From NCBI GenBank assembly GCA_965218235.1, contig OZ244595.1, positions 806,561-870,560 on the forward strand: a stretch of 64,000 nt of DNA, given 5' to 3'. The notes beneath the pieces were generated by a model, which saw only the letters and a list, made by a program, of their open reading frames with translations, searched no databases and had not been told where the DNA came from. This DNA comes from Thermomicrobiales bacterium (GTDB taxonomy: Bacteria; Chloroflexota; Chloroflexia; Thermomicrobiales; UBA6265). Of the stretch, positions 25,539 to 60,229 are shown one piece after another (the stretch's first letter is position 1; every line of letters starts with the position of its first letter). Both the position numbers and the translations under genes were made by a program.

Positions 25539-28247
25539 TCAACGGTCGTCGCGAACCTGATTGCCGGACATCGCCGCCCGGACCCGTTCCGGGGTAAATG
25601 GAACGGTCCGGAGGCGGGCGCCGGTGGCGGCAAAGATCGCGTTGCCGACGGCGGCGACCATCGGGCAGATCGCGCCCTCGCCGGCGCCGCATGACGGCTC
25701 GTCCGGCCGATCGATCAGGTCGATCGCGATCGCCGGGATGCCGGCGAAGCCGAGGATGGGGTAGCTGTCCCAGTCAAGTGCGGTGACGCGCGTCTCGTCC
25801 CAGGTCACCTCCTCGATCAGCGCCCGGCTGATTCCCTGGATGACGTTGCCCTCGATCTGGTTGCGGACGCCGTCCGGGTTCACGATTAGCCCGCAGTCAT
25901 GGGCGACGTAGACCCGGCTGACGCGGACGGCGCCGCTCGCCGGGACGACTTCGACCTCCGCGACGATGGCGACGTAGGCGTAGGCCGTTTCGTACCGGGC
26001 GAAGGCGACGCCGCGCCCGGTCAGCGCACCGTCGTCATTCGGCACTGGTCTGGCGGCATTCGACCCGGCGGGTCGTTGCTGCCAGCCGGCCAGCACGGCG
26101 GCCCGCTCGATCACGGCGATGGCGCGGGGATCGTCCAGGTGCCGGAGCCGGAACGCGACCGGGTCGGCCCCGGCGAGGGCGGCCAGCTCATCCATCGCCG
26201 TCTCGTTGGCGGTCGTGTTGGCGAGGCCACCGAGGCTGCGCAGGGCCGAGGGCCGCAGCGTTGGGTTCGTCACCCAGTGGGCGGTCAGCCGCTGGTTCGG
26301 GAAGCGGTAACTGGTCAGCGCGTTGCGGGTCCCACCGCCCCGGCCGAGCGGGGCGTAGGTGACCGGCGGCGACTTGAGCTGCGCGGCCAGCAGGTTGCCC
26401 GGCTGACCGCTGGGCCGGGTCGAGTGGGTCGGCGTCCAGACCTCGTAGGCCCAGGCGACGATGTCGTCGTCCGCACCGAGCCCGGTCCGGACCTCACAGA
26501 CCATCGCCGGCCCCTTGCCCTCCCAGGCGAACTCGCCCTGCCGCGACCAGATCACCCGGACGGGCCGTCCGACCGCCCGCGAGAGCAGGGCCGCGTCGGC
26601 CGCGACGTCGTCCGCCCCGTTGTGCCCGTAACAACCCGGTCCCTCCATATGGACGACGCGGACCGACGCTTCCGGCAGCCCGAGCACCGGCGCCAGCGCC
26701 TCTCGCAGCGAGAAGACGCCCTGCGACGCGCACCAGACCGTCGCGCCGTCCGGCCGGACATCGGCGACGGCGCAGGACGGCCCGATCGAGGCGTGGGCCT
26801 GCCACGGGTGCCGGTACGTCGCGGACAGGGTCTGCGTCGCCGCCGCGAAGCCCAGGTCGAGATCGCCGTCCGTCGCGATGTCCTGGTCGATGGTCGGTGC
26901 GTCGCGGATCGCGTCGAAGCGGTCGGCGAACGGCGGCAATCGGGCCGGCTCGGTCAACGTCGCCCGGAGCGCCTGGGCCGCGGCCAGCGCCTGGGCGTCC
27001 CGCTCGGCGACGACGCCGAGGAAGCTGCCGCTCCGGACCACGGCGACGATCCCTGGCAGGCCGTCGAGCGACGACTCGTCGACCGACACCAGCGTCGCGC
27101 CGACCCCGTCGATGGTCCGGACCATCGGCCGGATGACGCGGCCGTGGAGCATCCCGTCCAGCGTCAGGTCATGGACGTACGCTGCCCCGCCGGTCAGCTT
27201 GGCGAGCAGATCCACCCGCGGGACGGACTGCCCGACGACCTGATAGGCAGCCGGGTCCTTGAGCGTCACCTCGCCCGGCTCAACGATGGTCTGCCCGTCG
27301 ACGGGCGGATCACCGATCAGGTCGCCGTAGCCGATGCCAGGACCAAGCGAGGACGGATCGCGGATCACGCCGTCGGAGACGACCAGCCGATCGGACGGCT
27401 GATCGAGGCGCTGGGCGGCCCGGTCAAGCAGCGTTGTCCGGGCCCCGGCGGCGGCCCGCCGGAGGATGGGGCCAGCGCTCTGGATCGTCTTGCTGCCGGC
27501 CGTCGTTCCCTGATCCGGGGTCGTGGCGGTGTCGCCAGCGATCATCGTCAGGCAGTGGATTGGCAGATCGAGCTCCTCGGCGACGATCTGCGTCAGGGCG
27601 GTGCGGACCCCGGTCCCGAGCTCGACCTTGCCGGCCCGGATCGTGACGCGGCCGTCCGGGTGGAGCTCGATCAAGTCATTGAGCCGCTCGCCTGGTTCGC
27701 TCTCGGTCGCCGGTTCCGGTGTCGCGGGTGGGGTAAGGGACAACGCGGCGGCCGGGAGCGCCGCCGACAGTTTCGCCATCGCCCGGGCGGCGCGGCGGAC
27801 GGCCCGCATGATCCGGACGTGGGCGCCGCAGCGGCAGAGGTTGCCAGCGAGCGCGGCGTGGATCTCGGCGTTGGTCGGGTCGGGGGTCGTCGCGAGCAGC
27901 GCCGCGGTCGCGACGATCATGCCGGGGATGCAGTAGCCGCACTGGGCGGCCTGCTCATCGAGAAACGCCCGCTGGATCGGGTGAAGATCATTGCCGGGCG
28001 CGAGCCCTTCCAGCGTGGTGATCGCCGCCCCGGCCGCCTCCCGCACCGTCGTGACGCAGGACCGGATCGGCTCGCCGTCCCGCAGCACCGTGCAGACGCC
28101 GCACTGCGACAGCGCGCAGCCGATCTTCGCCCCATTGAGCCCGAGGTCGTTGCGCAGGGCGAGCAGCAGCAGGCTGTCCGGTTCGGCCGCGATGTCGTGG
28201 GTGTGGCCGTTGATGGTCAGAGTCATCGGGATTGTGGTTAGAGTCAT
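25539..28247 (-). CDS. Fused [2Fe-2S] small subunit and molybdopterin-binding large subunit of an IorA/IorB-type (aldehyde oxidase / xanthine dehydrogenase family) oxidoreductase
   Basis: The N-terminal ~155 aa carry both ferredoxin cluster motifs (GCALSQCGVCTV...SC and QCGYCIPG...CRCG). An Ala/Pro linker leads into IorB-like sequence (GKVELGTGVRTALTQIVAEELD...TPDQGTTAGS). No signal peptide. Confidence 0.8.
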   Translation of the reverse strand: MTLTTIPMTLTINGHTHDIAAEPDSLLLLALRNDLGLNGAKIGCALSQCGVCTVLRDGEPIRSCVTTVREAAGAAITTLEGLAPGNDLHPIQRAFLDEQAAQCGYCIPGMIVATAALLATTPDPTNAEIHAALAGNLCRCGAHVRIMRAVRRAARAMAKLSAALPAAALSLTPPATPEPATESEPGERLNDLIELHPDGRVTIRAGKVELGTGVRTALTQIVAEELDLPIHCLTMIAGDTATTPDQGTTAGSKTIQSAGPILRRAAAGARTTLLDRAAQRLDQPSDRLVVSDGVIRDPSSLGPGIGYGDLIGDPPVDGQTIVEPGEVTLKDPAAYQVVGQSVPRVDLLAKLTGGAAYVHDLTLDGMLHGRVIRPMVRTIDGVGATLVSVDESSLDGLPGIVAVVRSGSFLGVVAERDAQALAAAQALRATLTEPARLPPFADRFDAIRDAPTIDQDIATDGDLDLGFAAATQTLSATYRHPWQAHASIGPSCAVADVRPDGATVWCASQGVFSLREALAPVLGLPEASVRVVHMEGPGCYGHNGADDVAADAALLSRAVGRPVRVIWSRQGEFAWEGKGPAMVCEVRTGLGADDDIVAWAYEVWTPTHSTRPSGQPGNLLAAQLKSPPVTYAPLGRGGGTRNALTSYRFPNQRLTAHWVTNPTLRPSALRSLGGLANTTANETAMDELAALAGADPVAFRLRHLDDPRAIAVIERAAVLAGWQQRPAGSNAARPVPNDDGALTGRGVAFARYETAYAYVAIVAEVEVVPASGAVRVSRVYVAHDCGLIVNPDGVRNQIEGNVIQGISRALIEEVTWDETRVTALDWDSYPILGFAGIPAIAIDLIDRPDEPSCGAGEGAICPMVAAVGNAIFAATGARLRTVPFTPERVRAAMSGNQVRDDR

Positions 28248-28502
28248 GAAGAGTCTTTCAAGCGCGACAGATGTCGTCCGATTTGTGGTACAGGGTAGTT
28301 CGTTGCACGATACCTGCCGGTCGGGAGCTGGTGTCGTTGCGCTTTTCGATCACTGGAGAGGGTTTGTGCGGCGTTCATTCGCCTGAAAACTTCGACAGAT
28401 GGGAAGGAGCAGCTGATTCGAGTGTCGGAGTTGTGGCAAATCATGGGAAGATCACCTGTATGGCTCTGAATCTGGAGACGGCAAGAGAGGGCGGCCGGGA
28501 TC

Positions 28503-28691
28503 ATGGCGATGACGATCGATGCACGAGTCGAAGTCTGGAAACAGGAATTGCTCGAGTTGTCCAACCGCAATCCACTCCTGAGCATGAGTCGGTCGACAAC
28601 TCGCATGGCAACGCTCAGGATTACGGCTCCCTCAGCCGGTGAGATCTACGCCCACCTTGCCGACGGTGGGCGGCCGCTCATCCTGATGTGA
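28503..28691 (+). pseudogene. N-terminal DUF4011-like fragment of the large helicase gene, ended by an in-frame TGA
   Basis: MAMTIDARVEVWKQELLELSNRNPLLSM matches the usual N-terminus of DUF4011 helicases. It shares the frame of 28770..33395 and is separated from it only by TGA at 28689-28691. Confidence 0.65.
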
Positions 28692-28769
28692 ACCGAACCC
28701 TCGCTCCCGCTCGACCAAGAGGCATTCAGCGACCGCGCTGACCTGCAGGCCACACCGGACGATGACTTC

Positions 28770-31700
28770 GTGGTTGGCAAGCTCGACGGTGTGGCCAATT
28801 CGGATCCCGATCTCAGGACCGCGTCCAGCAAGCCGACGGACAAGCTTCCCGCAAAGGGCACTGTTCGGGTCGGTCTGTCCCCTGAGCGGGCAATCCATGT
28901 CAGCCGGGCAGTGCGGAAAAGAGCTCGAGAGTCGGAGCAGGAGCAGGGCATCAACACGCTGTTTGCGGCCTGCGGGACGTTGAAATGGCGTGAGTCCGCT
29001 ACGGGCAGTGGTTCCGACGCCTGGCGTTATGCCCCGCTGCTTCTCCTGCCGGTGCGAATCGAAGAGAATGTCCGGGCCGGCCGTCATACTCTGTTGGCGA
29101 CGGGCGACGACCCGGAATACAACCAGACACTAGCCGAGCGACTTCGCCGCGATTTTCGGATCGAGTTGCCCATCGACGTCGATGTCAGCGACGCGGACGA
29201 CATGGCCGGACTGGCGGCGATACTCCAGGCAGTTCGGTCGGCGGTCGCACTGATGCCGGACTGGGAGGTTCTGGACGAAGTAAATGTCGGGACGTTCAAG
29301 TTTCACAAGCTGCGGATGTTCCAGGATCTTGATGAGCACCGCGATGTCGCGATCCGTCACCCGATCGTGCAGGCACTTGCCGACCCAAACCGGACGGTCG
29401 CGGGCCTGCCGTCCGATGTGCCTCGCCCCGAGGATCTGGACCGGGTGGTCACACCGAAGCAGACCTTTAGTGTGCTGGACGCTGATGCGAGCCAGATGTG
29501 GGCGATCCAGGCGGCGAAACGGGGTAGCAACCTGATCGTTCAGGGGCCGCCGGGTACGGGCAAGAGCCAGACGATCGCGAATATCATCGCCGAATGCCTC
29601 GCGGCCAACAAGACGGTGCTCTTCGTCTCTGAGAAAGCCGCTGCAATCGAGGTCGTTCATCGTCGCCTGACCCAGCGCGGTCTGGGCGAGTTCTGCCTGA
29701 TGCTCCATAGCCAGAAATCGAATAAGCTCCAAATCGTTCGCGACCTTGCGGCGCGGCTCACTCCGGCGACGGTCGATGGTGACCCGCGACAGGAAGATCA
29801 TGATCTTGACCGGCTCGGGCAGGTTCGCGAGCGATTGAATGCCTACGCGACCTCGCTGCATCGGCGACACGAGCCGCTGGGCCGGTCAGCATTCGAAGTC
29901 CACGGCCTGCTCACAGCCCTCGACGACAACGGAGAACTTCCTGATCTCGTTGCCTCAATGCCTTCGGTCTCGATGCTGACATGGAGTGCTCTGGAAGGCT
30001 GGCAGACCATCGTTGGGGAAGCGGTTCGATCTGCACCAGTTCTGGCGGAAGGCGACCTTCACATCTGGGCGGGTTTTCGGCTCCGGGAGATCGGCTTTAC
30101 TGAGCGCTCGGAACTCACCCAGCTCCTGACTGATATGTCTGCGACGTTGAACGATACCGAAGGATCGGGCGCCCGGCTAGCGTCGACGCTCGGGATGCCT
30201 GCGCCCGAAACGATTCCGGCCGCCAGGGCACTTCGAGATCTGGCGGAAGCGATCCCGGTCGAGCGCGTCCTGCGTGCTGACTGGCTCGGGGCCGACCAGC
30301 ACGCCAGAGCGACGATGCTGTTGAACGAGGCGATGGAGCGGACCCGCTCGGCCACCGAGATGCGGACTGGATTGTTCTCGCGCTACGGTGACCGCATCCT
30401 GCGGGTCGCCACCCCGGAGACGATCGCGACCTATGAGACGGGGTGGTTCAGTCGCCTGTTCTCGGGGCCTCACCGTGGAGCCCGGGCTGCCGTTCGAGCT
30501 GCGTCGATCGACGCTAAGCAGCGATCGGTCACCAAGGAACTCGCCGATCTCCGTCGCGCAGCCGAACTCCATGGACAACTCGCCTGGTTCGGGGAGCAGG
30601 AGACTCCCCTCCGGACAGCACTCGGAGTCGATCTCGACCCAACGGGCATCGCGGACGCCGGCGCGCTCGCCGAGCGTCAGGCTGACCTCGCTGCCTCAGC
30701 CAGTCTCATCGACCGATATCGTCTCCGGTCCGTTCCGGCGTCGCTGGTCGCGGCGATCGGTCAGCCAGGCGCCGGAGTCCGTGTAGCGACGGCGCTTTCC
30801 GAATTGAACGACTGCATGACCCGACTTATTAGCCACCTCGCGGGATTGCAACGGTTCTTCGAACCGGAAACAATGGTGGTTCGAAGCGATACCACCATCG
30901 TCCCAATCGATCAGGGGACCGTTGGGCTCGGCCGGGAATGGCTAGAGGCGCGCCTCCAGCGGATGGACGACCTTGACGACTGGCTACGGGCGCAACGGGC
31001 GGCCGATGCCATCCGGGCCGCCGGTCTCACGGATGCCGTTGCTGAGCTCGAGCGCAAGGGCGTCGACACCGTCCGCTGGGTGGATACCCTCACCCGAACG
31101 GCCCTGCGGCGTTGGCTGGATTACGCCTATCGTCAGGACGGGATGCTCTCCCGCTTCAGCGGTGCCGACCACGAGCGGGACATCTCCGCGTTTCGGGATC
31201 TCGACCGCCGTCAGGTCGACTTCGCGGTGCGGCGCATCCGCCGTCGTCTAGCCACGGGCCAGCCCAACCTGAATGGGGCCGTGGGAGAGCCGGGCATTCT
31301 GCTCAAGGAGGCGAACAAGCGGCGCAACGTCAAGCCGCTGCGCTGGCTGTTCGCCCGGATCCCGACCCTGGTCCCGATCCTCAAGCCCTGTCTGATGATG
31401 AGTCCATTATCGGTTGCCCAGTTCCTGCCAGCCGACCAGTACCACTTCGATGTGATCATGTTCGATGAGGCATCGCAGGTTCGCCCGCACGACGCGATCG
31501 GCTCGATCATGCGGGGGACACAGCTCATCGTCGCCGGTGACGAGCAGCAGTTGCCCCCGACGAGTTTCTTCGACCGGTCCTCGACCGAGACTGAGGATGA
31601 TTCAGACGAAGATGACAGTCTTGCGGCGATGGAGAGTATCCTCGGCGCTTTGTCAGCCAAGCAGATGCCGACCGCGCCGCTGCTCTGGCACTACCGAAGC

Positions 31701-33395
31701 AGGCATGAGGACCTGATCGCCTTCTCCAACCACAACATCTACGACGGCCGGCTCATCACGTTCCCGTCCCCCAGCGCCGAGCGCGGACCGCGGGCCGGCG
31801 TGCGGCTGGAGTACGTCCCGGATGGCGTCTACGACGTAGGCATGGGCACATTTGGGGGCTCGTCGGACCGCTCCAATCCGGTCGAGGCCAAGCGGGTGGT
31901 CGAACTAGTGATGGCGCATGTCCGGGAGCGACCGGATGAGTCTCTGGGGGTCGTCGCCCTCAACGAGGATCACGCGCAAACAATCCAGTCGGCCCTTTTC
32001 GTCGCCCAGCAAGCCACCCCCGAGCTCCAGGAGTTCTTCCGTGAGGACCGCCCAGATCCGTTCTTCGTCAAGCCCCTGGAATTGATTCAAGGGGACGAGC
32101 GCGACGTGATCTTAATCAGCATCGGCTTCGGACGGAACGCGAAGGGGGTGCTGTCGCACAACTTTGGGCCGATCAACAACGAAGGCGGGGAGCGCCGCCT
32201 GAACGTGCTGGTCACCCGCGCGCGTGAACAGATCGTCGTTGTGTCATCCATTCGCGCCGGCGACATCGACCTGAACCGGACTCAGAAGCTTGGGCCGAAG
32301 CTGCTGCGCGACTATCTCGACTTCGCTGAGCGGGGCGCGGTCGCGTTGTCGCAGGCAACCCGAGGCGGTGATGGCGCGTTCGAGTCGCCATTCGAAGCTA
32401 GCGTTTGCGTGGCGCTTGAGTCGGCCGGCCATACCGTGCGCAGGCAGGTCGGCGCATCGTCGTTCCGGATTGACCTGGCGATCGTGGATCCTCGTCAGCC
32501 GGGGCGCTATCTGCTGGGCATCGAATGCGACGGCGCGACCTATCACTCGTCGAAGACTGCGCGAGACCGTGACCGGTTGCGGCAGGAGATCCTCGAGGGT
32601 CTGGGCTGGACGATCCATCGGGTCTGGTCGACCGACTGGATTAGGAACCCGCAGCGCGCACTGGCCAAGCTGACGGACCGCATCGAAGCTTTGCTCGCCC
32701 AACCAGTTGCGAAACGTCCCGTCCTTCGTGAGTTATCTCCGCCGCAGCCAACCGAGACCGTTATCCAGGCGGACAGTCCGACTCTGTCGTCAGGGAAGTC
32801 AATGGGTCGTCCCGGGACTGAAACGTTTGTGATCCCGACTGACCGCCCGCCGCTGCTGCCGCCATACCGAATGGCGCGGTTGACGACTCGCACCGGAGAA
32901 CTAACGGCTACACCGATCGCCCTGGTCGCGGAGGTCGTCATCGAGTGCGTCACGATCGAAGGGCCGATCCATCGCGAACTTCTGGGACGGCGGATCGCCG
33001 GAGTTTGGGGACATGGTCGTCAGGGCAACCGAATCGTCTCCCATCTGGACGCGGCGGTGGCGCTTGCCGTTCTACATGGGAACATCCGCCAGTTCGACGC
33101 GTTCCTATGGCCCACGACGAGTCTCGGTCTGGTCGCTCGCGGTCCGGCGATCGAAGGGGAGCCCCGGGCGATGGGGGTCATTGCCGGGGAGGAACTCGTT
33201 CTGGGTATGGTTGCGGTGCTCGGTCAGGCGCTGTCGCTTCCGGCCGACGAGCTAATTACCCAGACGACCCGTGCGTTCGGCTTTCAGCGCGTAGGAGCCG
33301 ACAACCGCGCTCGTCTTGTCGGAGTCCTTGGCGCCGCAGTTGCCAGCAAACAGATAGAGGCGGTCGGGGAGATGTATCGGCTGCCCAGAACGTAG
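28770..33395 (+). CDS. Large DUF4011 / Upf1-like SF1 helicase (AAA_11/AAA_12) / PD-(D/E)xK (DUF559-like) nuclease / DUF3320 protein; longest intact ORF from GTG 28770
   Basis: Walker A GPPGTGKSQT (~29544), FDEASQ (~31461), VAGDEQQLPPT, YRSRHE, VLVTRAREQ. Vsr/DUF559-like block FRIDLAIVDP...IECDGATYHSS..ARDRDRLRQ..LE.LGW.IHRVWSTDW (~32385..32660). DUF3320-like tail. Hand-counted lines inside the gene gave 48% and 53% G+C. Confidence 0.8.
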   Translation: MVGKLDGVANSDPDLRTASSKPTDKLPAKGTVRVGLSPERAIHVSRAVRKRARESEQEQGINTLFAACGTLKWRESATGSGSDAWRYAPLLLLPVRIEENVRAGRHTLLATGDDPEYNQTLAERLRRDFRIELPIDVDVSDADDMAGLAAILQAVRSAVALMPDWEVLDEVNVGTFKFHKLRMFQDLDEHRDVAIRHPIVQALADPNRTVAGLPSDVPRPEDLDRVVTPKQTFSVLDADASQMWAIQAAKRGSNLIVQGPPGTGKSQTIANIIAECLAANKTVLFVSEKAAAIEVVHRRLTQRGLGEFCLMLHSQKSNKLQIVRDLAARLTPATVDGDPRQEDHDLDRLGQVRERLNAYATSLHRRHEPLGRSAFEVHGLLTALDDNGELPDLVASMPSVSMLTWSALEGWQTIVGEAVRSAPVLAEGDLHIWAGFRLREIGFTERSELTQLLTDMSATLNDTEGSGARLASTLGMPAPETIPAARALRDLAEAIPVERVLRADWLGADQHARATMLLNEAMERTRSATEMRTGLFSRYGDRILRVATPETIATYETGWFSRLFSGPHRGARAAVRAASIDAKQRSVTKELADLRRAAELHGQLAWFGEQETPLRTALGVDLDPTGIADAGALAERQADLAASASLIDRYRLRSVPASLVAAIGQPGAGVRVATALSELNDCMTRLISHLAGLQRFFEPETMVVRSDTTIVPIDQGTVGLGREWLEARLQRMDDLDDWLRAQRAADAIRAAGLTDAVAELERKGVDTVRWVDTLTRTALRRWLDYAYRQDGMLSRFSGADHERDISAFRDLDRRQVDFAVRRIRRRLATGQPNLNGAVGEPGILLKEANKRRNVKPLRWLFARIPTLVPILKPCLMMSPLSVAQFLPADQYHFDVIMFDEASQVRPHDAIGSIMRGTQLIVAGDEQQLPPTSFFDRSSTETEDDSDEDDSLAAMESILGALSAKQMPTAPLLWHYRSRHEDLIAFSNHNIYDGRLITFPSPSAERGPRAGVRLEYVPDGVYDVGMGTFGGSSDRSNPVEAKRVVELVMAHVRERPDESLGVVALNEDHAQTIQSALFVAQQATPELQEFFREDRPDPFFVKPLELIQGDERDVILISIGFGRNAKGVLSHNFGPINNEGGERRLNVLVTRAREQIVVVSSIRAGDIDLNRTQKLGPKLLRDYLDFAERGAVALSQATRGGDGAFESPFEASVCVALESAGHTVRRQVGASSFRIDLAIVDPRQPGRYLLGIECDGATYHSSKTARDRDRLRQEILEGLGWTIHRVWSTDWIRNPQRALAKLTDRIEALLAQPVAKRPVLRELSPPQPTETVIQADSPTLSSGKSMGRPGTETFVIPTDRPPLLPPYRMARLTTRTGELTATPIALVAEVVIECVTIEGPIHRELLGRRIAGVWGHGRQGNRIVSHLDAAVALAVLHGNIRQFDAFLWPTTSLGLVARGPAIEGEPRAMGVIAGEELVLGMVAVLGQALSLPADELITQTTRAFGFQRVGADNRARLVGVLGAAVASKQIEAVGEMYRLPRT

Positions 33396-33416
33396 ATTCA
33401 CACACGATACCAAAAA

Positions 33417-33456
33417 GGCAGGGCCGAGAATGCTAAATCCCCGGCCCTGCCTTTCT
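33417..33456. terminator. Bidirectional rho-independent terminator
   Basis: AAAAA, then GGCAGGGCCG (33417-33426), a 15-nt loop, CGGCCCTGCC (33442-33451), then TTTCT. It lies between convergent genes. Confidence 0.75.
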
Positions 33457-33485: not shown

Positions 33486-35897
33486 TTACGCCGACAACGC
33501 CTGGATCGCGGCCAGGACCTTGGCTGGGGTGTAGGGGGTCTGGCGGAGGCGGGCGCCGGTCGCGTCGAAGATCGCGTTGCTGACGGCCGCCGCGATCGGG
33601 CAGATGGCGGGCTCGCCGGCGCCGAGGGGCGGCTGATCCGGCCGGTCGATCAGCTCGATCTCGATCAGCGGGATGTCGGCGAACCCCATGATCGAGTAGG
33701 TCGACCAGTCCAGGCTCGTGACCGCTGCGGCGTCGAAGGTGACTTCCTCCTTGAGCGCCCGGCCGATCCCCTGGATCACGCAGCCGTCGATCTGGTTCAT
33801 CAGCCCATTCGGATTGATGATCAGCCCGCAGTCATGCCCGACGACGATCCGGTCGACCCGGACCGTCCCGTCGGCCGGGTTGACCGTCACCTCGGCGATC
33901 GTCGCGGCGTAGGCGAACGCGGTCTCGTAGCGGGCGAACGCGATCCCGCGACCGGTCACGGTGCCATCGGCCGCCGGGACGACGCCGGACGATTGCGGAC
34001 CGGACGGTCGGGCCTGCCAGCCCGCCCGGGTCGCGGCCCGCTGGATGACCTCGATCGCTCGGGGGTCGGCCAGGTGCCGGAGCCGGAACTCGACCGCGTC
34101 GGCCCCGGCCAGCGCCGCCAGTTCCTCCATGAAGCTCTCGTTGGCTGTCACATTGGCGACCGCGCCAAGACTCCGGAGCGCCGAGGGACGCAGCGGTGGC
34201 GTCTCGACCCAGTTCACGGTCAGGCGCTGGTTGGGGATGGAGTAGTCGTTCGGCGCGTTGCGGTCGCCGCCGACCTGTCCGAGCGGGGCGGTCTCGACCG
34301 GTGGGTCGATCTGCTGCCCGACGAGCATGTTGCCGGGCTGGCCACCGGGCCGGGTCGAGTGGGTGGGGGTGAAGACAGTGTAGTCCCAGGCGACGATGTT
34401 GCCGTCCGAGTCGAGCCCGCCGCGGATGTCCATCACCATCGCCGGACCCTTGGGCTCCCAGGCGAACTCGCCCTGCCGCGACCACAGGAGCCGGACCGGC
34501 CTCCCGACCGCCTGCGACAGGACCGCCGCGTCGGCACAGACGTCGTCGGCGCCGTTGTGGCCGTAGCAGCCGGCCCCCTCCTTGTAGATCACACGGACCT
34601 GCTCCGGCGCCAGCCCGATGATCGGGCCGATCGCCGCCGGCAGCGCGTAGACGCCCTGGGAGGCCGAGTAGATCGTCGCGTCGTCGGGCCGGACGTCGGC
34701 GATCGAGCAGGACGGTCCCATCGAGGCATGGGCCTGGAACGGGTGCTGGTAGGTTGCCTCCAGCATCCTGGTCGTCCGGGTCGTGAAGGCACCGTCGACG
34801 TCGCCGGTCCGGACGGTCTCGTCGGTCTCGGCCGGCATCTCCCGGATCAGGTCGTAGAGCTGGTTGATGTCGGGCAGCGTCTCGGTCTGCGTCCACGTCA
34901 CCTTGATCGCGTCGGCGTAACGGAGCGCCTGCTCCTCGCGCTCCGTCACGACCCCGACGAAGGAGCCGTTCTGGACGATGGCGATCAGCCCCGGCTGCCC
35001 CTGGACGGCACTGTCGTCGATGCTGGCGACCGTCGAGCCGATCCCGTTTAGGGTGCGGACGTAGGGCCGGATCACCCGGGCGTGGACCATCCCTTCGACG
35101 GTGAGGTCGTGGATGTAGGCCTCGCCGCCGGTCAGCTTGGTCGTGATGTCGATCCGCGGGATGGACTGGCCGACCACCCGGTAGGCGTCGTAGGGCTTGA
35201 CGGGGGCGTCGCCGGTGATGGCCTGGCCGAACGACGCGGTCGCGAGCTGGCCGTAGGTAACGGTCTTCGTCGAATCGAACAGCGCCGTGACGACGCCAGA
35301 CTCGACCTGCAGGTTGTCGACCGGGACCGCGAGCTGCTCGGAGGCGCGGGTCAGCAGCACGAGGCGGGCTTCGGCCGCGGCCTGCTGGAGGACGGGGCCG
35401 GCGACCTGGATGCTCTTGCTGCCGGCCGTCGTGCCCTGGTCGGGCGTCGTCAGGGTGTCGCCGGCGATCAGGGTGGCGGACGCGAAATCGACGTCGAGCT
35501 CCTCGACCACGATCTGGGTGAGCGAGGTCCAGAGCCCGGTCCCGAGCTCGACTTTGCCGCAGTAGATCGTGACCTTGCCCTCGCCGTCGATGCTCAGCCA
35601 GGAGTCGATCGTGTCGCCGGTGACGTCGCGGGTCTGGACGTCCTGGCCGGTCTGGTCGGCCGGCGTCGCGACGATGCCGGGGCCGGTCGTCGGCGTTCCG
35701 GCTGGAGTGCCCGCCGGTGCGACGGTCGGCTCCTGCGCCATCAGGCCGGCCCGGCGGAAGGCCGCGGCGAGACTGAAGCCGATCACGACGCCACCGGAGC
35801 CCTTGAGCAGGGTGCGGCGGCTGACCGGCGAGACGCGGGCTTCGGACTCGAACGGTGCGTCAGGAGAGACGGGGGCCTCGGGAGGTGCTGCGGTCAT
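33486..35897 (-). CDS. IorB-type molybdopterin-binding oxidoreductase large subunit with a TAT signal
   Basis: AAAGGA RBS before ATG 35897. Twin-arginine motif SRRTLLKGSGGVVIGFSLAAAF. Roughly 55-60% identical by eye to the C-terminal part of 25539..28247. Confidence 0.8.
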   Translation of the reverse strand: MTAAPPEAPVSPDAPFESEARVSPVSRRTLLKGSGGVVIGFSLAAAFRRAGLMAQEPTVAPAGTPAGTPTTGPGIVATPADQTGQDVQTRDVTGDTIDSWLSIDGEGKVTIYCGKVELGTGLWTSLTQIVVEELDVDFASATLIAGDTLTTPDQGTTAGSKSIQVAGPVLQQAAAEARLVLLTRASEQLAVPVDNLQVESGVVTALFDSTKTVTYGQLATASFGQAITGDAPVKPYDAYRVVGQSIPRIDITTKLTGGEAYIHDLTVEGMVHARVIRPYVRTLNGIGSTVASIDDSAVQGQPGLIAIVQNGSFVGVVTEREEQALRYADAIKVTWTQTETLPDINQLYDLIREMPAETDETVRTGDVDGAFTTRTTRMLEATYQHPFQAHASMGPSCSIADVRPDDATIYSASQGVYALPAAIGPIIGLAPEQVRVIYKEGAGCYGHNGADDVCADAAVLSQAVGRPVRLLWSRQGEFAWEPKGPAMVMDIRGGLDSDGNIVAWDYTVFTPTHSTRPGGQPGNMLVGQQIDPPVETAPLGQVGGDRNAPNDYSIPNQRLTVNWVETPPLRPSALRSLGAVANVTANESFMEELAALAGADAVEFRLRHLADPRAIEVIQRAATRAGWQARPSGPQSSGVVPAADGTVTGRGIAFARYETAFAYAATIAEVTVNPADGTVRVDRIVVGHDCGLIINPNGLMNQIDGCVIQGIGRALKEEVTFDAAAVTSLDWSTYSIMGFADIPLIEIELIDRPDQPPLGAGEPAICPIAAAVSNAIFDATGARLRQTPYTPAKVLAAIQALSA

Positions 35898-35928
35898 CGG
35901 GTGATCCTTTCCCACGACGTCGGATGAA

Positions 35929-36408
35929 CTACGCGGTGGCGCCGGCGGCCCGCTGGATGGCGCGGACGATCCGGACGTGGGTCCCACAGCGGCAGAGGTT
36001 GCCGGCGAAGGCCGTGTTGATGTCGTCCTGGGTCGGCTCCGGTGTGGATTCGAGCAGTGCGGCGGCGGTCATCATCATGCCGGGGATGCAGTAGCCGCAC
36101 TGGGCGGCCTGCTCGGCGATGAACGCCTGCTGGATCGGGTGGAGCTCGCTGCCGGGCGCGAGCCCTTCGAGGGTCGTGATCTCGGAACCGGCGACGGACT
36201 GGACCTGGGTGACGCAGGAGCGGATCGGCTGTCCATCCTGGTGGACGGTGCAGGCGCCGCACTGGGCCAGGCCGCAGCCGAACTTGGCGGCGTGAAGGCC
36301 GAGCTCGTTGCGGAGCACGTAGAGGAGCGGCGTGTCGGGCGTGGCCTGGACCTCGTGCGGCTGGCCGTTGATCGAGAGGGTGAGGGGCGTGGCCGGGGTG
36401 CTCTGCAT
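35929..36408 (-). CDS. IorA-type (2Fe-2S)-binding small subunit
   Basis: GAAGGAG RBS before ATG 36408. GCGLAQCGACTV...SC and QCGYCIPG...CRCG motifs. It sits 31 nt upstream of the large-subunit start. Confidence 0.85.
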   Translation of the reverse strand: MQSTPATPLTLSINGQPHEVQATPDTPLLYVLRNELGLHAAKFGCGLAQCGACTVHQDGQPIRSCVTQVQSVAGSEITTLEGLAPGSELHPIQQAFIAEQAAQCGYCIPGMMMTAAALLESTPEPTQDDINTAFAGNLCRCGTHVRIVRAIQRAAGATA

Positions 36409-36484
36409 CTGCAGCTCCTTCGTCGATTGTGGTCCACGACGACCACATGGTGTCCCCTGAGGTGGGGACGGCAGGAAGAATCTC

Positions 36485-36513
36485 ATTATCGTAGCCAGTC
36501 GGGCCGTGGTCAA
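36485..36513 (-). promoter_or_regulatory. Sigma-70-like promoter candidate for the split iorA/iorB-like operon (TTGACC-17 nt-GATAAT on the minus strand)
   Basis: -35 is the complement of 36508-36513 and -10 is the complement of 36485-36490. The ~75-nt leader contains two 6-bp-stem hairpins (36430-36447 and 36452-36469). Confidence 0.45.
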
Positions 36514-37008
36514 TGTCTCAGCAGTACCCGGTTTCTCCAAAGACAAACACTTCGGAGAAATGGTGACTAGTCAACGATTGAATATCATGCTCGACGAACC
36601 CAGATGTGAATGTCGTGTCAGCCCTCCCATCACGATGGTTGATCACCACCGGCCGGACACGACGAATCCACCTGGCGAATCACGCAGGATCGTCCCTCGA
36701 TGCAACGAGTCGATCGCCGATGGGTAGGTCCGGTCCTCTCACGCCAGGCTCCGTATACTGCCTGAGACACCGGCGGAGGTGACCCAGGTGGTGTAGGTTG
36801 CTCATGTCGTCCGGCGTGGACCACACCCCGGCCTGGACGGGAACCATCCAGACATCGACAATCGCTGGTCGGTTCATCCCGGCCGGATTTCTTGCTGTCC
36901 GCCGACATCATCAACCGACCGTCACCCACGACAATCATTCGCATCCGCCCTCGCTCGTCATCGGAGCCGATCCTCTCTCGATGGTTCTGAGCGAAGGGAA
37001 CACGACGG

Positions 37009-59284: not shown

Positions 59285-60229
59285 ATGGTCAACGCCATTG
59301 AATCGAACCTGGCGGTGGACCACGTCCGGGCCGAGCCAGTCCGCAAGCAGCGGGTCCGGTCGGAGACGCTCTGGGGGATGCTCTGCGTCGCGCCGGCGGT
59401 GATGGGATTCCTGCTGTTCGAGTTCGGCCCGATGGTCGCCAGCTTCATCCTGACCCTGTCCGACTGGAGCGTTTCCGGCCAGACGCACTGGCTTGGCCTC
59501 CAGAACTTCCAGACGATCTTCCAGGATGACGCGCTGTTCCGGAAGGCGGCCCGAGTCACCCTCACCTACGCGGCGGTTAGTGTCCCGCTCCAGATCGTCG
59601 TCGCCTTCCTGCTGGCGCTGCTGCTCAACGAGCGCATCAAGGGGCTGCCGATCTTCCGGACGATCTTCTACCTGCCGGCGACGGTCCCGCTGGTCGCGTC
59701 GAGCGTGCTCTGGCTCTGGATGTTCAACCCGGACTTCGGTCTGCTCAACACCATCATCACCAGGGTCGGCCTGCCCGAACAGCAGTGGATCTACTCGTCC
59801 GACACGGTGCTGCCGTCGCTGATCCTGATGAGCCTCTGGGGCGTCGGCCCGATGATGATCATCTTCCTGGCCGGGCTGACCGCCATCCCGCAGCACCTCT
59901 ACGAGGCGGTCTCGCTCGACGGCGGCAACGTCTTCAACCGCCTCTGGAGCGTGACGATCCCGATGATCACGCCGACGATCTTCTTCAACCTCATCCTCAG
60001 CGTGATCGGCGCGCTTCAGACGTTCATCCAGGCCTACGTCATCACCGACGGAGGGCCGAACAACGCCAGTCTGTTCTACGGGCTCTATCTCTACCGCAAG
60101 GCGTTCGAACTCGGCGATCTCGGCTACGCGGCCGCTCTGGGCGTGATCCAGTTCGCGGTCATCGCCGTGTTGACCGTGATCGTCTTCTCGACATCCAACC
60201 GCTGGGTCCATTACGGGGGAGAGGATTAG
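59285..60229 (+). CDS. Sugar ABC transporter permease (MalF/UgpA-like)
   Basis: Six TM helices and EAA loop LYEAVSLDGGNVFNRLWSVTIPMI. Confidence 0.8.
   Translation: MVNAIESNLAVDHVRAEPVRKQRVRSETLWGMLCVAPAVMGFLLFEFGPMVASFILTLSDWSVSGQTHWLGLQNFQTIFQDDALFRKAARVTLTYAAVSVPLQIVVAFLLALLLNERIKGLPIFRTIFYLPATVPLVASSVLWLWMFNPDFGLLNTIITRVGLPEQQWIYSSDTVLPSLILMSLWGVGPMMIIFLAGLTAIPQHLYEAVSLDGGNVFNRLWSVTIPMITPTIFFNLILSVIGALQTFIQAYVITDGGPNNASLFYGLYLYRKAFELGDLGYAAALGVIQFAVIAVLTVIVFSTSNRWVHYGGED

What the first reader, a model, noticed from the sequence alone, without database searches (positions are those of the whole stretch)
28503..28772. A single in-frame TGA at codon 63 interrupts the giant helicase gene
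ORF 28503..28691 and ORF 28770..33395 are in the same frame. The only interruption is TGA at 28689-28691 (..GGRPLILM*TEPSLPLDQ..). The 62 residues before it are the conserved DUF4011 N-terminus, so they belong to the same gene.

Four explanations are possible: a very recent nonsense mutation that inactivated a costly or toxic gene, a sequencing error, reinitiation at GTG 28770 giving an N-terminally truncated protein, or stop-codon read-through. Everything downstream is intact for more than 1500 codons. That argues the lesion is recent or tolerated.
Basis: seen in the sequence. Interest (0 to 1): 0.55.

Follow-up and report, generated by a model that had tools for sequence, protein, structure and literature searches.

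The report
Nonsense-mutated anti-phage helicase-nuclease gene
A large accessory gene of a candidate anti-phage helicase-nuclease family carries one premature TGA stop where its relatives encode glycine, most likely a recent knock-out in a family that has been broken several times independently in related bacteria, so it is real but ordinary.

Summary
ORF 28503..28691 and ORF 28770..33395 share a frame, and TGA 28689-28691 is the only stop between them. The 62 upstream codons are the true N-terminus of a 1630-codon DUF4011 / Upf1-like helicase / MTES_1575 nuclease / DUF3320 gene. This gene matches PADLOC candidate PDC-S37 end to end.

The stop replaces a glycine that is conserved in the close subfamily. 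The three nearest alleles have GGG, GGG and GGT, so GGA>TGA is the simplest route.

- **Recoding:** TGA is the commonest genuine stop in the window. I found no SECIS element, no RNA structure, and no ribosome-binding site before GTG 28770.
- **Decay:** the rest of the gene shows none.
- **Setting:** the gene sits alone in a variable hotspot between two molybdenum-hydroxylase operons of a Thermomicrobiales genome. Relatives carry an intact allele, an IS5-split allele, a GajB-like helicase, or nothing at this site. More distant homologs are broken by a MITE and by a frameshift.

Best reading: a recent loss-of-function nonsense mutation, possibly leaky at the level usual for UGA. An assembly error cannot be excluded without reads. 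Interest is low to moderate.

The parts
28503..33395 (+). Whole disrupted gene: 1630 codons with one internal TGA. Domains in order are DUF4011, AAA_11/AAA_12 (Upf1-like SF1B helicase), MTES_1575 (Vsr-like nuclease) and DUF3320.
   Evidence: Translation. Pfam. PADLOC PDC-S37 with E=0, 1360 bits, residues 2-1626 against profile 2-1545 of 1550. PDB sequence hits only to the Upf1, IGHMBP2, SEN1 and DNA2 helicase cores.
28480..28495 (+). Purine-rich block GGCAAGAGAGGGCGGC upstream of ATG 28503. It is the likely ribosome-binding region of the true start.
   Evidence: Predicted anti-SD duplex of -7.4 kcal/mol, in the top 7% of the background and within the range of other genes in the window. The block is 16/16 identical in the sister allele L090, although the coding sequence has diverged.
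28503..28688 (+). Codons 1-62: the conserved N-terminal module of DUF4011 (invariant W12, L16, L17, N23, L25, P43).
   Evidence: Alignments. BLASTP E=5e-18 and hhalign E=5.5e-18. In the AF2 model of homolog P0002 this module is confident, pLDDT 78-96, with helix-strand-helix-strand.
28689..28691 (+). Premature TGA at codon 63, followed by A (UGA-A context). It replaces a conserved glycine.
   Evidence: The column holds Gly in 41 of 119 homologs and in nearly all of the 30 closest. The codon is GGG in L084 and L088 and GGT in L090. It maps to the first residue after the last strand of the N-terminal module, at the start of a disordered linker.
28692..28769 (+). 26 in-frame codons between the stop and the first possible restart codon. 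They belong to the variable, low-confidence linker.
   Evidence: Translation. The linker varies in length and sequence among homologs. The equivalent stretch of the P0002 model has pLDDT 40-55.
28770..33395 (+). Remaining ORF (1541 codons from GTG) as called by gene finders. It holds the rest of DUF4011, the helicase, the nuclease and DUF3320, and all conserved motifs are intact.
   Evidence: It is present in the protein collection as P0001, and the 62-aa ORF as P0121. Walker A GPPGTGKS and DEASQ are retained. Only 3 of 198 otherwise invariant columns are broken. There is no SD before GTG 28770.
33413..33456 (.). GC-rich hairpin flanked by an A-run and a T-rich run, between the convergent ends of the helicase gene and the 833-aa gene. 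It is a likely bidirectional terminator and the 3' edge of the cassette.
   Evidence: It is conserved in the sister locus L090.
25539..28247 (-). Flanking core gene: a fused [2Fe-2S] and molybdopterin-binding oxidoreductase (902 aa), divergent from the helicase.
   Evidence: Pfam. Orthologs of 83-85% identity, and of at least 90%, lie next to the same hotspot in relatives.
33486..35987 (-). Flanking core gene: a molybdopterin-binding oxidoreductase (833-aa ORF; orthologs are 803 aa), convergent with the helicase.
   Evidence: Pfam. It is 98% aa identical to L090, with dS 0.11.

Best explanation
The locus is one gene for a single-protein helicase-nuclease of the DUF4011 family. It is the PADLOC candidate PDC-S37 type, a relative of the validated defence proteins Hhe and ProA. 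The gene is an accessory cassette in a variable hotspot between two molybdenum-hydroxylase operons of a Thermomicrobiales genome.

A single base change turned a conserved glycine codon into TGA at codon 63, most simply GGA to TGA. Ribosomes that start at ATG 28503 therefore release a 62-residue peptide. The remaining 1567 codons have no ribosome-binding site of their own, so they go largely untranslated and the gene is switched off.

The event is recent compared with the age of the allele, because nothing downstream has decayed. I infer that losing this large, probably costly or self-damaging defence gene is tolerated or favoured. A few per cent of ribosomes may still read UGA as Trp, as in other bacteria, and make trace full-length protein.

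**Shown:** gene unity, the position and identity of the lost codon, standard use of TGA, absence of recoding signals, absence of decay, and the hotspot context.
**Inferred:** that the change is real rather than an assembly error, that it abolishes function, and that loss is selectively tolerated.
For: - **One gene:** DUF4011 spans the stop. PDC-S37 aligns continuously over residues 2-1626. The 62-aa piece matches homolog N-termini at E~5e-18.
- **Conserved Gly:**. The nearest alleles read IVG-TEP against the window's LM*-TEP, with codons GGG, GGG and GGT.
- **TGA is an ordinary stop here:** it ends 31 of 58 high-GC3 ORFs. That set includes some antisense shadow ORFs, but most well-supported genes also end in TGA.
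- **No recoding signal:** no Rfam hit, folding z-score -0.13, no tRNA gene in the window.
- **No restart signal:** SD pairing is -3.4 kcal/mol at GTG 28770 against -7.4 at ATG 28503.
- **No decay:** 3 of 198 invariant columns are broken against 0-7 in intact homologs. dN/dS to L090 is 0.12-0.22.
- **Accessory cassette:** GC3 is 0.74 against about 0.85-0.92 for neighbours. The same site holds an intact allele (L084/L085), an IS5-split allele (L090), a GajB-like helicase (L089), or nothing (L086/L087).
- **Independent disruptions in the close subfamily:** a 189-bp MITE in L001 and a 1-nt insertion in L003.
- **Defence role of the wider family:** Hhe is a validated single-gene helicase-nuclease system (PMC11482910, PMC11232893).
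Against: - No reads are available, so a consensus error or a minority variant cannot be excluded.
- No strain closer than 56% protein identity was found in any collection, so there is no direct sister allele with a sense codon.
- From GGG or GGT, two substitutions are needed, so the GGA intermediate is assumed.
- Complete absence of decay is equally what a still-functional gene would show.
- The apparent excess of N-terminal lesions among homologs is biased, because hits ranked by score favour genes broken near an end.
- Among 80 distant family members in reference genomes, 79 are uninterrupted. Inactivation is therefore not general to the family.
Confidence: 0.7

Rival explanations
1. Sequencing, assembly or consensus error: the organism really has a glycine codon here and the gene is intact.
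For: - The gene is otherwise flawless.
- One base restores the conserved Gly.
- The source appears to be a single 1.84-Mb contig known from one assembly only.
- The sister contigs come from a metagenome assembly at only 16-21x, judging by their names. A consensus there could carry a minority variant.
Against: - The lesion is a substitution rather than a homopolymer indel, and substitutions are the rarer kind of consensus error (general knowledge).
- The flanks align to L089 at 97% with almost no gaps.
- Three related alleles carry lesions of other kinds. Two of them, an IS5 element and a MITE, cannot be base-calling errors. Genuine inactivation of this gene is therefore common in this clade.
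Confidence: 0.15
2. Tolerated or exploited leakiness: UGA-A is read by Trp-tRNA at a low rate, giving a small amount of full-length protein with Trp63. This could be enough for a defence enzyme, or could serve as a throttle on a toxic one.
For: - UGA read-through by Trp-tRNA(Trp) is about 2-4% in wild-type E. coli (PMC10570021).
- Trp occupies this alignment column in 24 of 119 more distant homologs, so Trp63 is probably tolerated.
- The residue lies at the edge of a disordered linker.
- The gene shows no decay.
Against: - No stimulatory RNA structure or motif lies downstream.
- None of the 119 homologs aligned has a stop at this position, and 79 of 80 distant genomic copies are uninterrupted throughout. 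The stop is therefore not a conserved feature.
- Read-through rates in Thermomicrobiales are unknown.
- Absence of decay is also expected for a very young pseudogene.
Confidence: 0.08
3. Functional split: the 62-residue N-terminal module and an N-truncated protein restarted at GTG 28770 (or 28791) are both made, and they work together or separately.
For: - The break falls exactly between a confidently folded N-terminal module and a disordered linker. That is the place where a split would do least damage.
- Gene callers report both ORFs.
Against: - There is no SD before GTG 28770 or 28791. Both pair at -3.4 kcal/mol, the background median.
- The restart codon lies 76 nt after the stop, which is long for coupling.
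- No homolog is naturally split here.
- The N-terminal module holds the most conserved residues of DUF4011.
Confidence: 0.04
4. Recoding of TGA: selenocysteine insertion, or a genome-wide reassignment of TGA to Gly (code 25) or Trp (code 4).
For: Only the coincidence that the lost residue is Gly, the meaning of UGA in code 25.
Against: - TGA terminates about half of the well-supported genes in the window, and the genome is 67% G+C.
- There is no SECIS or other Rfam match and no significant structure after the UGA.
- No homolog has Cys in this column.
Confidence: 0.01

Closest known systems
PADLOC phage-defence candidate PDC-S37 (PDLC05009)
   Same: Full-length, collinear match (E=0, 1360 bits, profile 2-1545 of 1550). 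It has the same single-gene architecture of DUF4011, SF1B helicase, MTES_1575 nuclease and DUF3320. The syntenic intact allele P0003 matches equally well.
   Different: The window copy carries a premature stop at codon 63. PDC-S37 is itself only a computational candidate, and I found no paper naming it.
Hhe (HheA), a validated single-gene helicase-nuclease anti-phage system (NCBIfam NF042953, PADLOC PDLC02194)
   Same: A DUF4011-containing protein with an Upf1-like helicase and a Vsr-like nuclease that acts as a single gene (PMC11482910, PMC11232893, PMC12278908). The helicase C-lobe and nuclease align strongly, at 839 bits.
   Different: The score is far below the family cut-off (839 against 2000). 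Only residues 812-1403 align, so the N-terminal half and the insertion domain differ.
Anti-phage protein ProA (NCBIfam NF058533)
   Same: This is the best NCBIfam match, collinear over residues 5-1596 at 1305 bits.
   Different: The score is below the equivalog cut-off of 1500. The first ~355 profile positions have no counterpart here. I found no paper on ProA in the library.
Young pseudogenes of defence genes in variable defence hotspots
   Same: - A core-gene-flanked site with alternative cargo in close relatives.
- Atypical composition.
- Deeply diverged alleles inside conserved flanks.
- Repeated inactivation by nonsense mutation, IS, MITE and frameshift.

The P. aeruginosa core hotspot cDHS1 is, incidentally, bordered by a DUF4011 gene (10.1101/2022.11.11.516204).
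   Different: Here the hotspot holds a single gene rather than an island. No integrase, tRNA or repeats mark it. The flanks are paralogous metabolic operons.

Membership tests
PADLOC PDC-S37 | Full-length match to the PDC-S37 profile HMM | tested here: met
   E=0, 1360.7 bits, residues 2-1626 against profile 2-1545 of 1550.
PADLOC PDC-S37 | Single-gene system with no conserved partner genes | tested here: met
   The gene lies alone between housekeeping Mo-hydroxylase genes. The intact allele in L084 has the same layout.
PADLOC PDC-S37 | Uninterrupted reading frame encoding the whole protein | tested here: not met
   TGA at codon 63.
PADLOC PDC-S37 | Protection against phage | not testable with these tools
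   The family is a computational candidate, and no paper in the library names it.
Hhe (NCBIfam NF042953) | Score at or above the curated equivalog cut-off (2000 bits) | tested here: not met
   838.6 bits, with only residues 812-1403 aligned.
ProA (NCBIfam NF058533) | Score at or above the curated equivalog cut-off (1500 bits), with the full profile covered | tested here: not met
   1305 bits, with only profile positions 356-1903 covered. The intact homologs P0002 and P0003 behave the same way.
Pfam DUF4011 (PF13195) | Domain match above the gathering score | tested here: met
   94.4 bits against a cut-off of 22.2, residues 15-214, spanning the stop.
Upf1-like SF1B helicases (AAA_11/AAA_12) | Walker A, Walker B and both RecA-like lobes present | tested here: met
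   GPPGTGKS at 348-355 and DEASQ at 988-992 are invariant in the alignment. AAA_11 and AAA_12 are above cut-off. PDB hits are to UPF1, IGHMBP2, SEN1 and DNA2.
MTES_1575 / Vsr-like endonuclease (PF18741) | Full-length domain match | tested here: met
   E=9.4e-38, profile 1-96 of 96, residues 1297-1394.
Bacterial selenoprotein gene | SECIS hairpin just downstream of UGA, and Cys in homologs at that position | tested here: not met
   No Rfam match at E<=1. Folding z-score is -0.13. The column holds G, W, R, P, L and S but no C.
Genomes with UGA reassigned (codes 4 and 25) | UGA not used as a terminator, and genes fragmented under the standard code | tested here: not met
   31 of 58 high-GC3 ORFs end in TGA, and ORFs of 800-1500 codons are intact under code 11.

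The most novel reading that the evidence does not exclude
The UGA is kept rather than merely not yet repaired. In this reading a leaky stop, placed exactly at the hinge between the conserved N-terminal module and the disordered linker, throttles a self-toxic helicase-nuclease to a few per cent of normal output. Because UGA read-through varies from cell to cell (PMC10570021), it might also produce cell-to-cell differences in defence. The IS, MITE and frameshift lesions in sister alleles would then be cruder solutions to the same cost problem.
Probability: 0.06. Interest if true: 0.55.

Novelty: new member of a known kind. Interest (0 to 1): 0.25.

Why it matters
**As a finding:** it matters little. 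It is a clean example of a very young pseudogene, or an assembly error, in an accessory defence gene. Annotators should mark 28503..33395 as one disrupted gene rather than two proteins.

**The surroundings** have some value.
- They define a core-flanked defence hotspot in Thermomicrobiales with at least four states: a nonsense allele, an IS5-split allele, an intact allele, a GajB-like helicase, or an empty site.
- They show that PDC-S37-type genes there are exchanged as deeply diverged alleles.
- They show that these genes are knocked out repeatedly by different mutational routes.

This fits the view that such helicase-nucleases are costly. It also offers natural on/off allele pairs for testing whether PDC-S37 is a real defence system.

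Tried and rejected
**Leads that gave nothing**
- Exact look-ups of the window's own proteins to find the source record returned nothing on record. The organism is placed only as Thermomicrobiales, by homolog names and synteny.
- A degenerate 69-nt pattern across the site found nothing in the JGI metagenomes, so population variation could not be assessed.
- Megablast against plasmids found no related replicon.
- Promoter and terminator scans around the 5' end found nothing.
- Foldseek of the DUF4011 N-terminal model against PDB gave no match at E<=0.001. A PDB sequence search found only the helicase core.
- Literature searches for PDC-S37 and ProA found nothing usable.

**Hypotheses rejected**
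- Selenocysteine insertion and UGA reassignment.
- A natural two-gene arrangement.
- A dedicated internal start at GTG 28770.

**Caveat on the lesion count**
I considered claiming that N-terminal lesions are enriched in this family. I do not make that claim. Score-ranked hit lists favour genes broken near an end, and 79 of 80 distant genomic copies are intact.
Full report
**1. The observation**

The sequence is as described. ATG 28503 opens a 62-codon ORF that ends at TGA 28689-28691. GTG 28770 opens a 1541-codon ORF that ends at 33395. The two are in the same frame, and translating 28503..33395 gives one internal stop in the context ...GGRPLILM*TEPSLPLDQ.... Both pieces are stored as separate proteins in the public protein collection. 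Each comes from a single 1,837,268-bp contig held by NCBI and ENA.

**2. It is one gene**

With the stop masked, the 1630-residue product has these Pfam domains:

| Domain | Residues |
|---|---|
| DUF4011 (spans the stop) | 15-214 |
| AAA_11 and AAA_12 | 328-413 and 1048-1249 (best stretches) |
| MTES_1575 | 1297-1394 |
| DUF3320 | 1470-1512 |

The PADLOC profile for candidate PDC-S37 aligns without a break from residue 2 to 1626 (E=0, 1360 bits). The 62-residue peptide alone matches the N-terminus of the closest homolog at E=5e-18. It matches a profile of 24 homolog N-termini at E=5.5e-18.

The predicted Shine-Dalgarno pairing before ATG 28503 is -7.4 kcal/mol, typical of genes in this window. 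The purine-rich block GGCAAGAGAGGGCGGC (28480-28495) and the ATG are conserved in a sister allele.

**3. What the stop replaced**

I aligned 119 homolog N-termini. The stop column holds Gly in 41 of them, and in nearly all of the 30 closest. More distant members have Trp (24), Arg (19) and others, but never Cys. The nearest alleles compare as follows:

| Allele | Relation to the window gene | Residues | Codon |
|---|---|---|---|
| Window | n/a | LILM*TEP | TGA |
| P0002 / L088 | closest homolog, 56% aa identity | LTIVGTEP | GGG |
| P0003 / L084 | syntenic allele, 51% aa identity | QSIVGTEP | GGG |
| L090 | sister-genome allele | LTIVGTEP | GGT |

The simplest history is GGN drifting to GGA, followed by a single G>T change to TGA. 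The GGA step is an inference.

**4. Alternatives to a plain nonsense mutation**

- **Genetic code.** The window is 67% G+C. TGA ends 31 of 58 ORFs with the composition of real genes, so it is the commonest terminator here.
- **Selenocysteine or programmed read-through.** Rfam gives no match at E<=1 in 28200..29200. The 100 nt around and after the stop fold no better than shuffles (z=-0.13). The window holds no tRNA gene.
- **Restart.** GTG 28770 and GTG 28791 each pair with the anti-SD at -3.4 kcal/mol, the median for start-like triplets inside the gene. They lie 76 nt or more beyond the stop.
- **Natural split.** Of the 30 closest homologs, three begin downstream. One is cut by a contig end (L002). 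One has a 189-bp MITE-like insert with perfect 15-bp terminal inverted repeats after codon ~57 (L001). One has a 1-nt insertion near codon 40 (L003). None is a natural two-gene arrangement.

**5. State of the rest of the gene**

In a 29-sequence full-length alignment, the window protein departs from 3 of 198 columns that are invariant in all the others. The changes are F>C, I>V and A>S. Intact homologs depart from 0-7 such columns.

Walker A (GPPGTGKS), DEASQ and the nuclease motifs are retained. Against the sister allele in L090, dN/dS is 0.12-0.22 along the gene. The divergence therefore accumulated under purifying selection, and the stop is young compared with the age of the allele.

**6. 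Where the stop falls in the protein**

The AlphaFold2 model has mean pLDDT 79.7 and pTM 0.73. It shows three parts:
- a confident N-terminal module (helix 7-18, strand 39-44, helix 47-55, strand 62-65; pLDDT 78-96);
- a low-confidence linker (about residues 71-120; pLDDT 40-55);
- a well-folded core.

The Gly equivalent to the stop is the first residue after strand 62-65. The mutation therefore cuts the protein exactly at the hinge between the conserved N-terminal module and the disordered linker.

The module contains the most conserved residues of DUF4011 (W12, L16, L17, N23, L25, P43). No solved structure resembles the domain.

**7. Genomic setting**

The gene is flanked by two sets of molybdenum-hydroxylase genes. 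The 902-aa Fer2-MoCoBD gene at 25539-28247 is divergent from it. The MoCoBD gene at 33486-35987 is convergent with it. A GC-rich hairpin at 33413-33456 lies between the convergent ends. The helicase gene has GC3 of 0.74, against about 0.85-0.92 for its neighbours.

Homolog names and synteny place the genome in the Thermomicrobiales. Relatives with the same flanks differ at this site:

| Locus | Flank similarity to the window | Content of the site |
|---|---|---|
| L084 / L085 | 86-90% nt; 902-aa gene ortholog 85% aa | Intact DUF4011 allele, 1635 aa as called on the contig (1652-aa protein P0003), 51% aa identical |
| L086 / L087 | 87-90% nt; 902-aa gene ortholog 83% aa | Empty, 215-bp spacer |
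| L089 | 97% nt | 562-aa GajB/UvrD-like helicase |
| L090 | dS 0.11-0.16 | DUF4011 allele split by a 797-bp IS5-family element near codon 445 |

The window and L090 share their cassette ends, the SD block and the last ~70 codons. The rest of the gene is only 50-68% identical at the protein level, with saturated synonymous sites. These are old alleles exchanged within conserved flanks. The site behaves as a small defence hotspot.

**8. How it most likely works, or fails to**

The intact protein is presumably a single-chain sensor-effector. It combines an Upf1-like 5'-3' SF1B motor with a Vsr-like nuclease, as in Hhe. Hhe protects E. coli as a single gene and is triggered by phage DNA-metabolism functions (PMC11482910; also PMC11232893, PMC12278908).

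In the window copy, translation from ATG 28503 ends after 62 residues, and I infer that the enzyme is essentially not made. UGA is read by Trp-tRNA at about 2-4% in wild-type E. coli (PMC10570021). Trp occurs naturally at this column in distant homologs. A trace of active full-length protein is therefore conceivable, but nothing in the sequence suggests that this is selected.

**9. Comparison with known families**

The gene is a full-length member of the PADLOC candidate PDC-S37, apart from its broken frame. It is related to Hhe and ProA but falls below both cut-offs (839 against 2000 bits for Hhe, 1305 against 1500 for ProA), and it lacks ProA's first ~355 profile positions. The intact homologs P0002 and P0003 score the same way.

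The phenomenon itself, a nonsense mutation in an accessory defence gene, is well known.

**10. Verdict**

The feature is real and was read correctly by the first stage. My probabilities are:

| Explanation | Probability |
|---|---|
| Recent loss-of-function mutation | about 0.7 |
| Assembly or consensus error | about 0.15 |
| Some tolerated or exploited expression (leaky read-through, or split and restart) | about 0.1 |
| Recoding | about 0.01 |

Interest is low to moderate at 0.25. What there is comes from the hotspot and from the repeated, mechanistically different knock-outs of this gene family in related genomes.

The bias caveat stands. The lesions I found came from score-ranked lists, and 79 of 80 distant genomic copies are intact.

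Noticed in passing
L001 2677-2865: A 189-bp MITE-like insertion with perfect 15-bp terminal inverted repeats (CTAGAGCCTGTTAGG / CCTAACAGGCTCTAG). It interrupts the homologous helicase gene (P0007) after codon ~57, only a few codons from the position of the window's stop.
   Followed up: partly
L003 around 925-935: A 1-nt insertion (an extra G between CTT and ATT) shifts the frame of the homolog P0008 near codon 40. Its called protein therefore starts downstream. This is a short-read (Logan) assembly, so an assembly error is possible.
   Followed up: partly
L090 3071-9084: A sister-genome allele of the same helicase at the same site is split into 540-aa and 1197-aa pieces by a 797-bp IS5-family element (NF033580, DUF4096). 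In this locus the 902-aa Fer2-MoCoBD ortholog is also called as two adjacent genes (218 aa and 678 aa), whereas it is fused in the window.
   Followed up: partly
L089 7798-9486; L086 9786-10000: The same inter-operon site holds a 562-aa GajB/UvrD-like helicase in the closest relative (97% flank identity), with no GajA-like partner between the flanking genes. In another relative the site is empty (215-bp spacer). It therefore behaves as a small defence hotspot.
   Followed up: partly
window 28503-33395 compared with L090: The window and L090 helicase alleles share the 5' SD block, the 3' terminator and the last ~70 codons at flank-like identity. The remaining ~1550 codons are 50-68% identical, with saturated third positions. 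This mosaic suggests allele replacement by recombination inside conserved ends.
   Followed up: partly
window 33413-33456: A GC-rich hairpin (AAAAAGGCAGGGCCG ... CGGCCCTGCCTTTCT) lies between the convergent helicase gene and the 833-aa gene. It is a likely bidirectional intrinsic terminator and is conserved in L090. The simple terminator scan missed it.
   Followed up: partly
window 28503-33395: The helicase gene has GC3 of 0.74, against about 0.85-0.92 for neighbouring genes. This fits a horizontally acquired gene.
   Followed up: yes
window 1224, 2051, 6983 (+ strand): These are other stops with open, coding-like composition on both sides in the same frame. They may be ordinary same-frame gene junctions, antisense shadows or further broken genes. 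The stop at 60227 is an ordinary junction between adjacent same-frame genes.
   Followed up: no
window 25539-28247 and 33486-36546: The hotspot is flanked by paralogous Mo-hydroxylase gene sets. One has the [2Fe-2S] domain fused to the catalytic subunit, and the other keeps it as a separate gene. They are about 71-76% identical to each other at the nucleotide level, which could itself promote recombination at this site.
   Followed up: no
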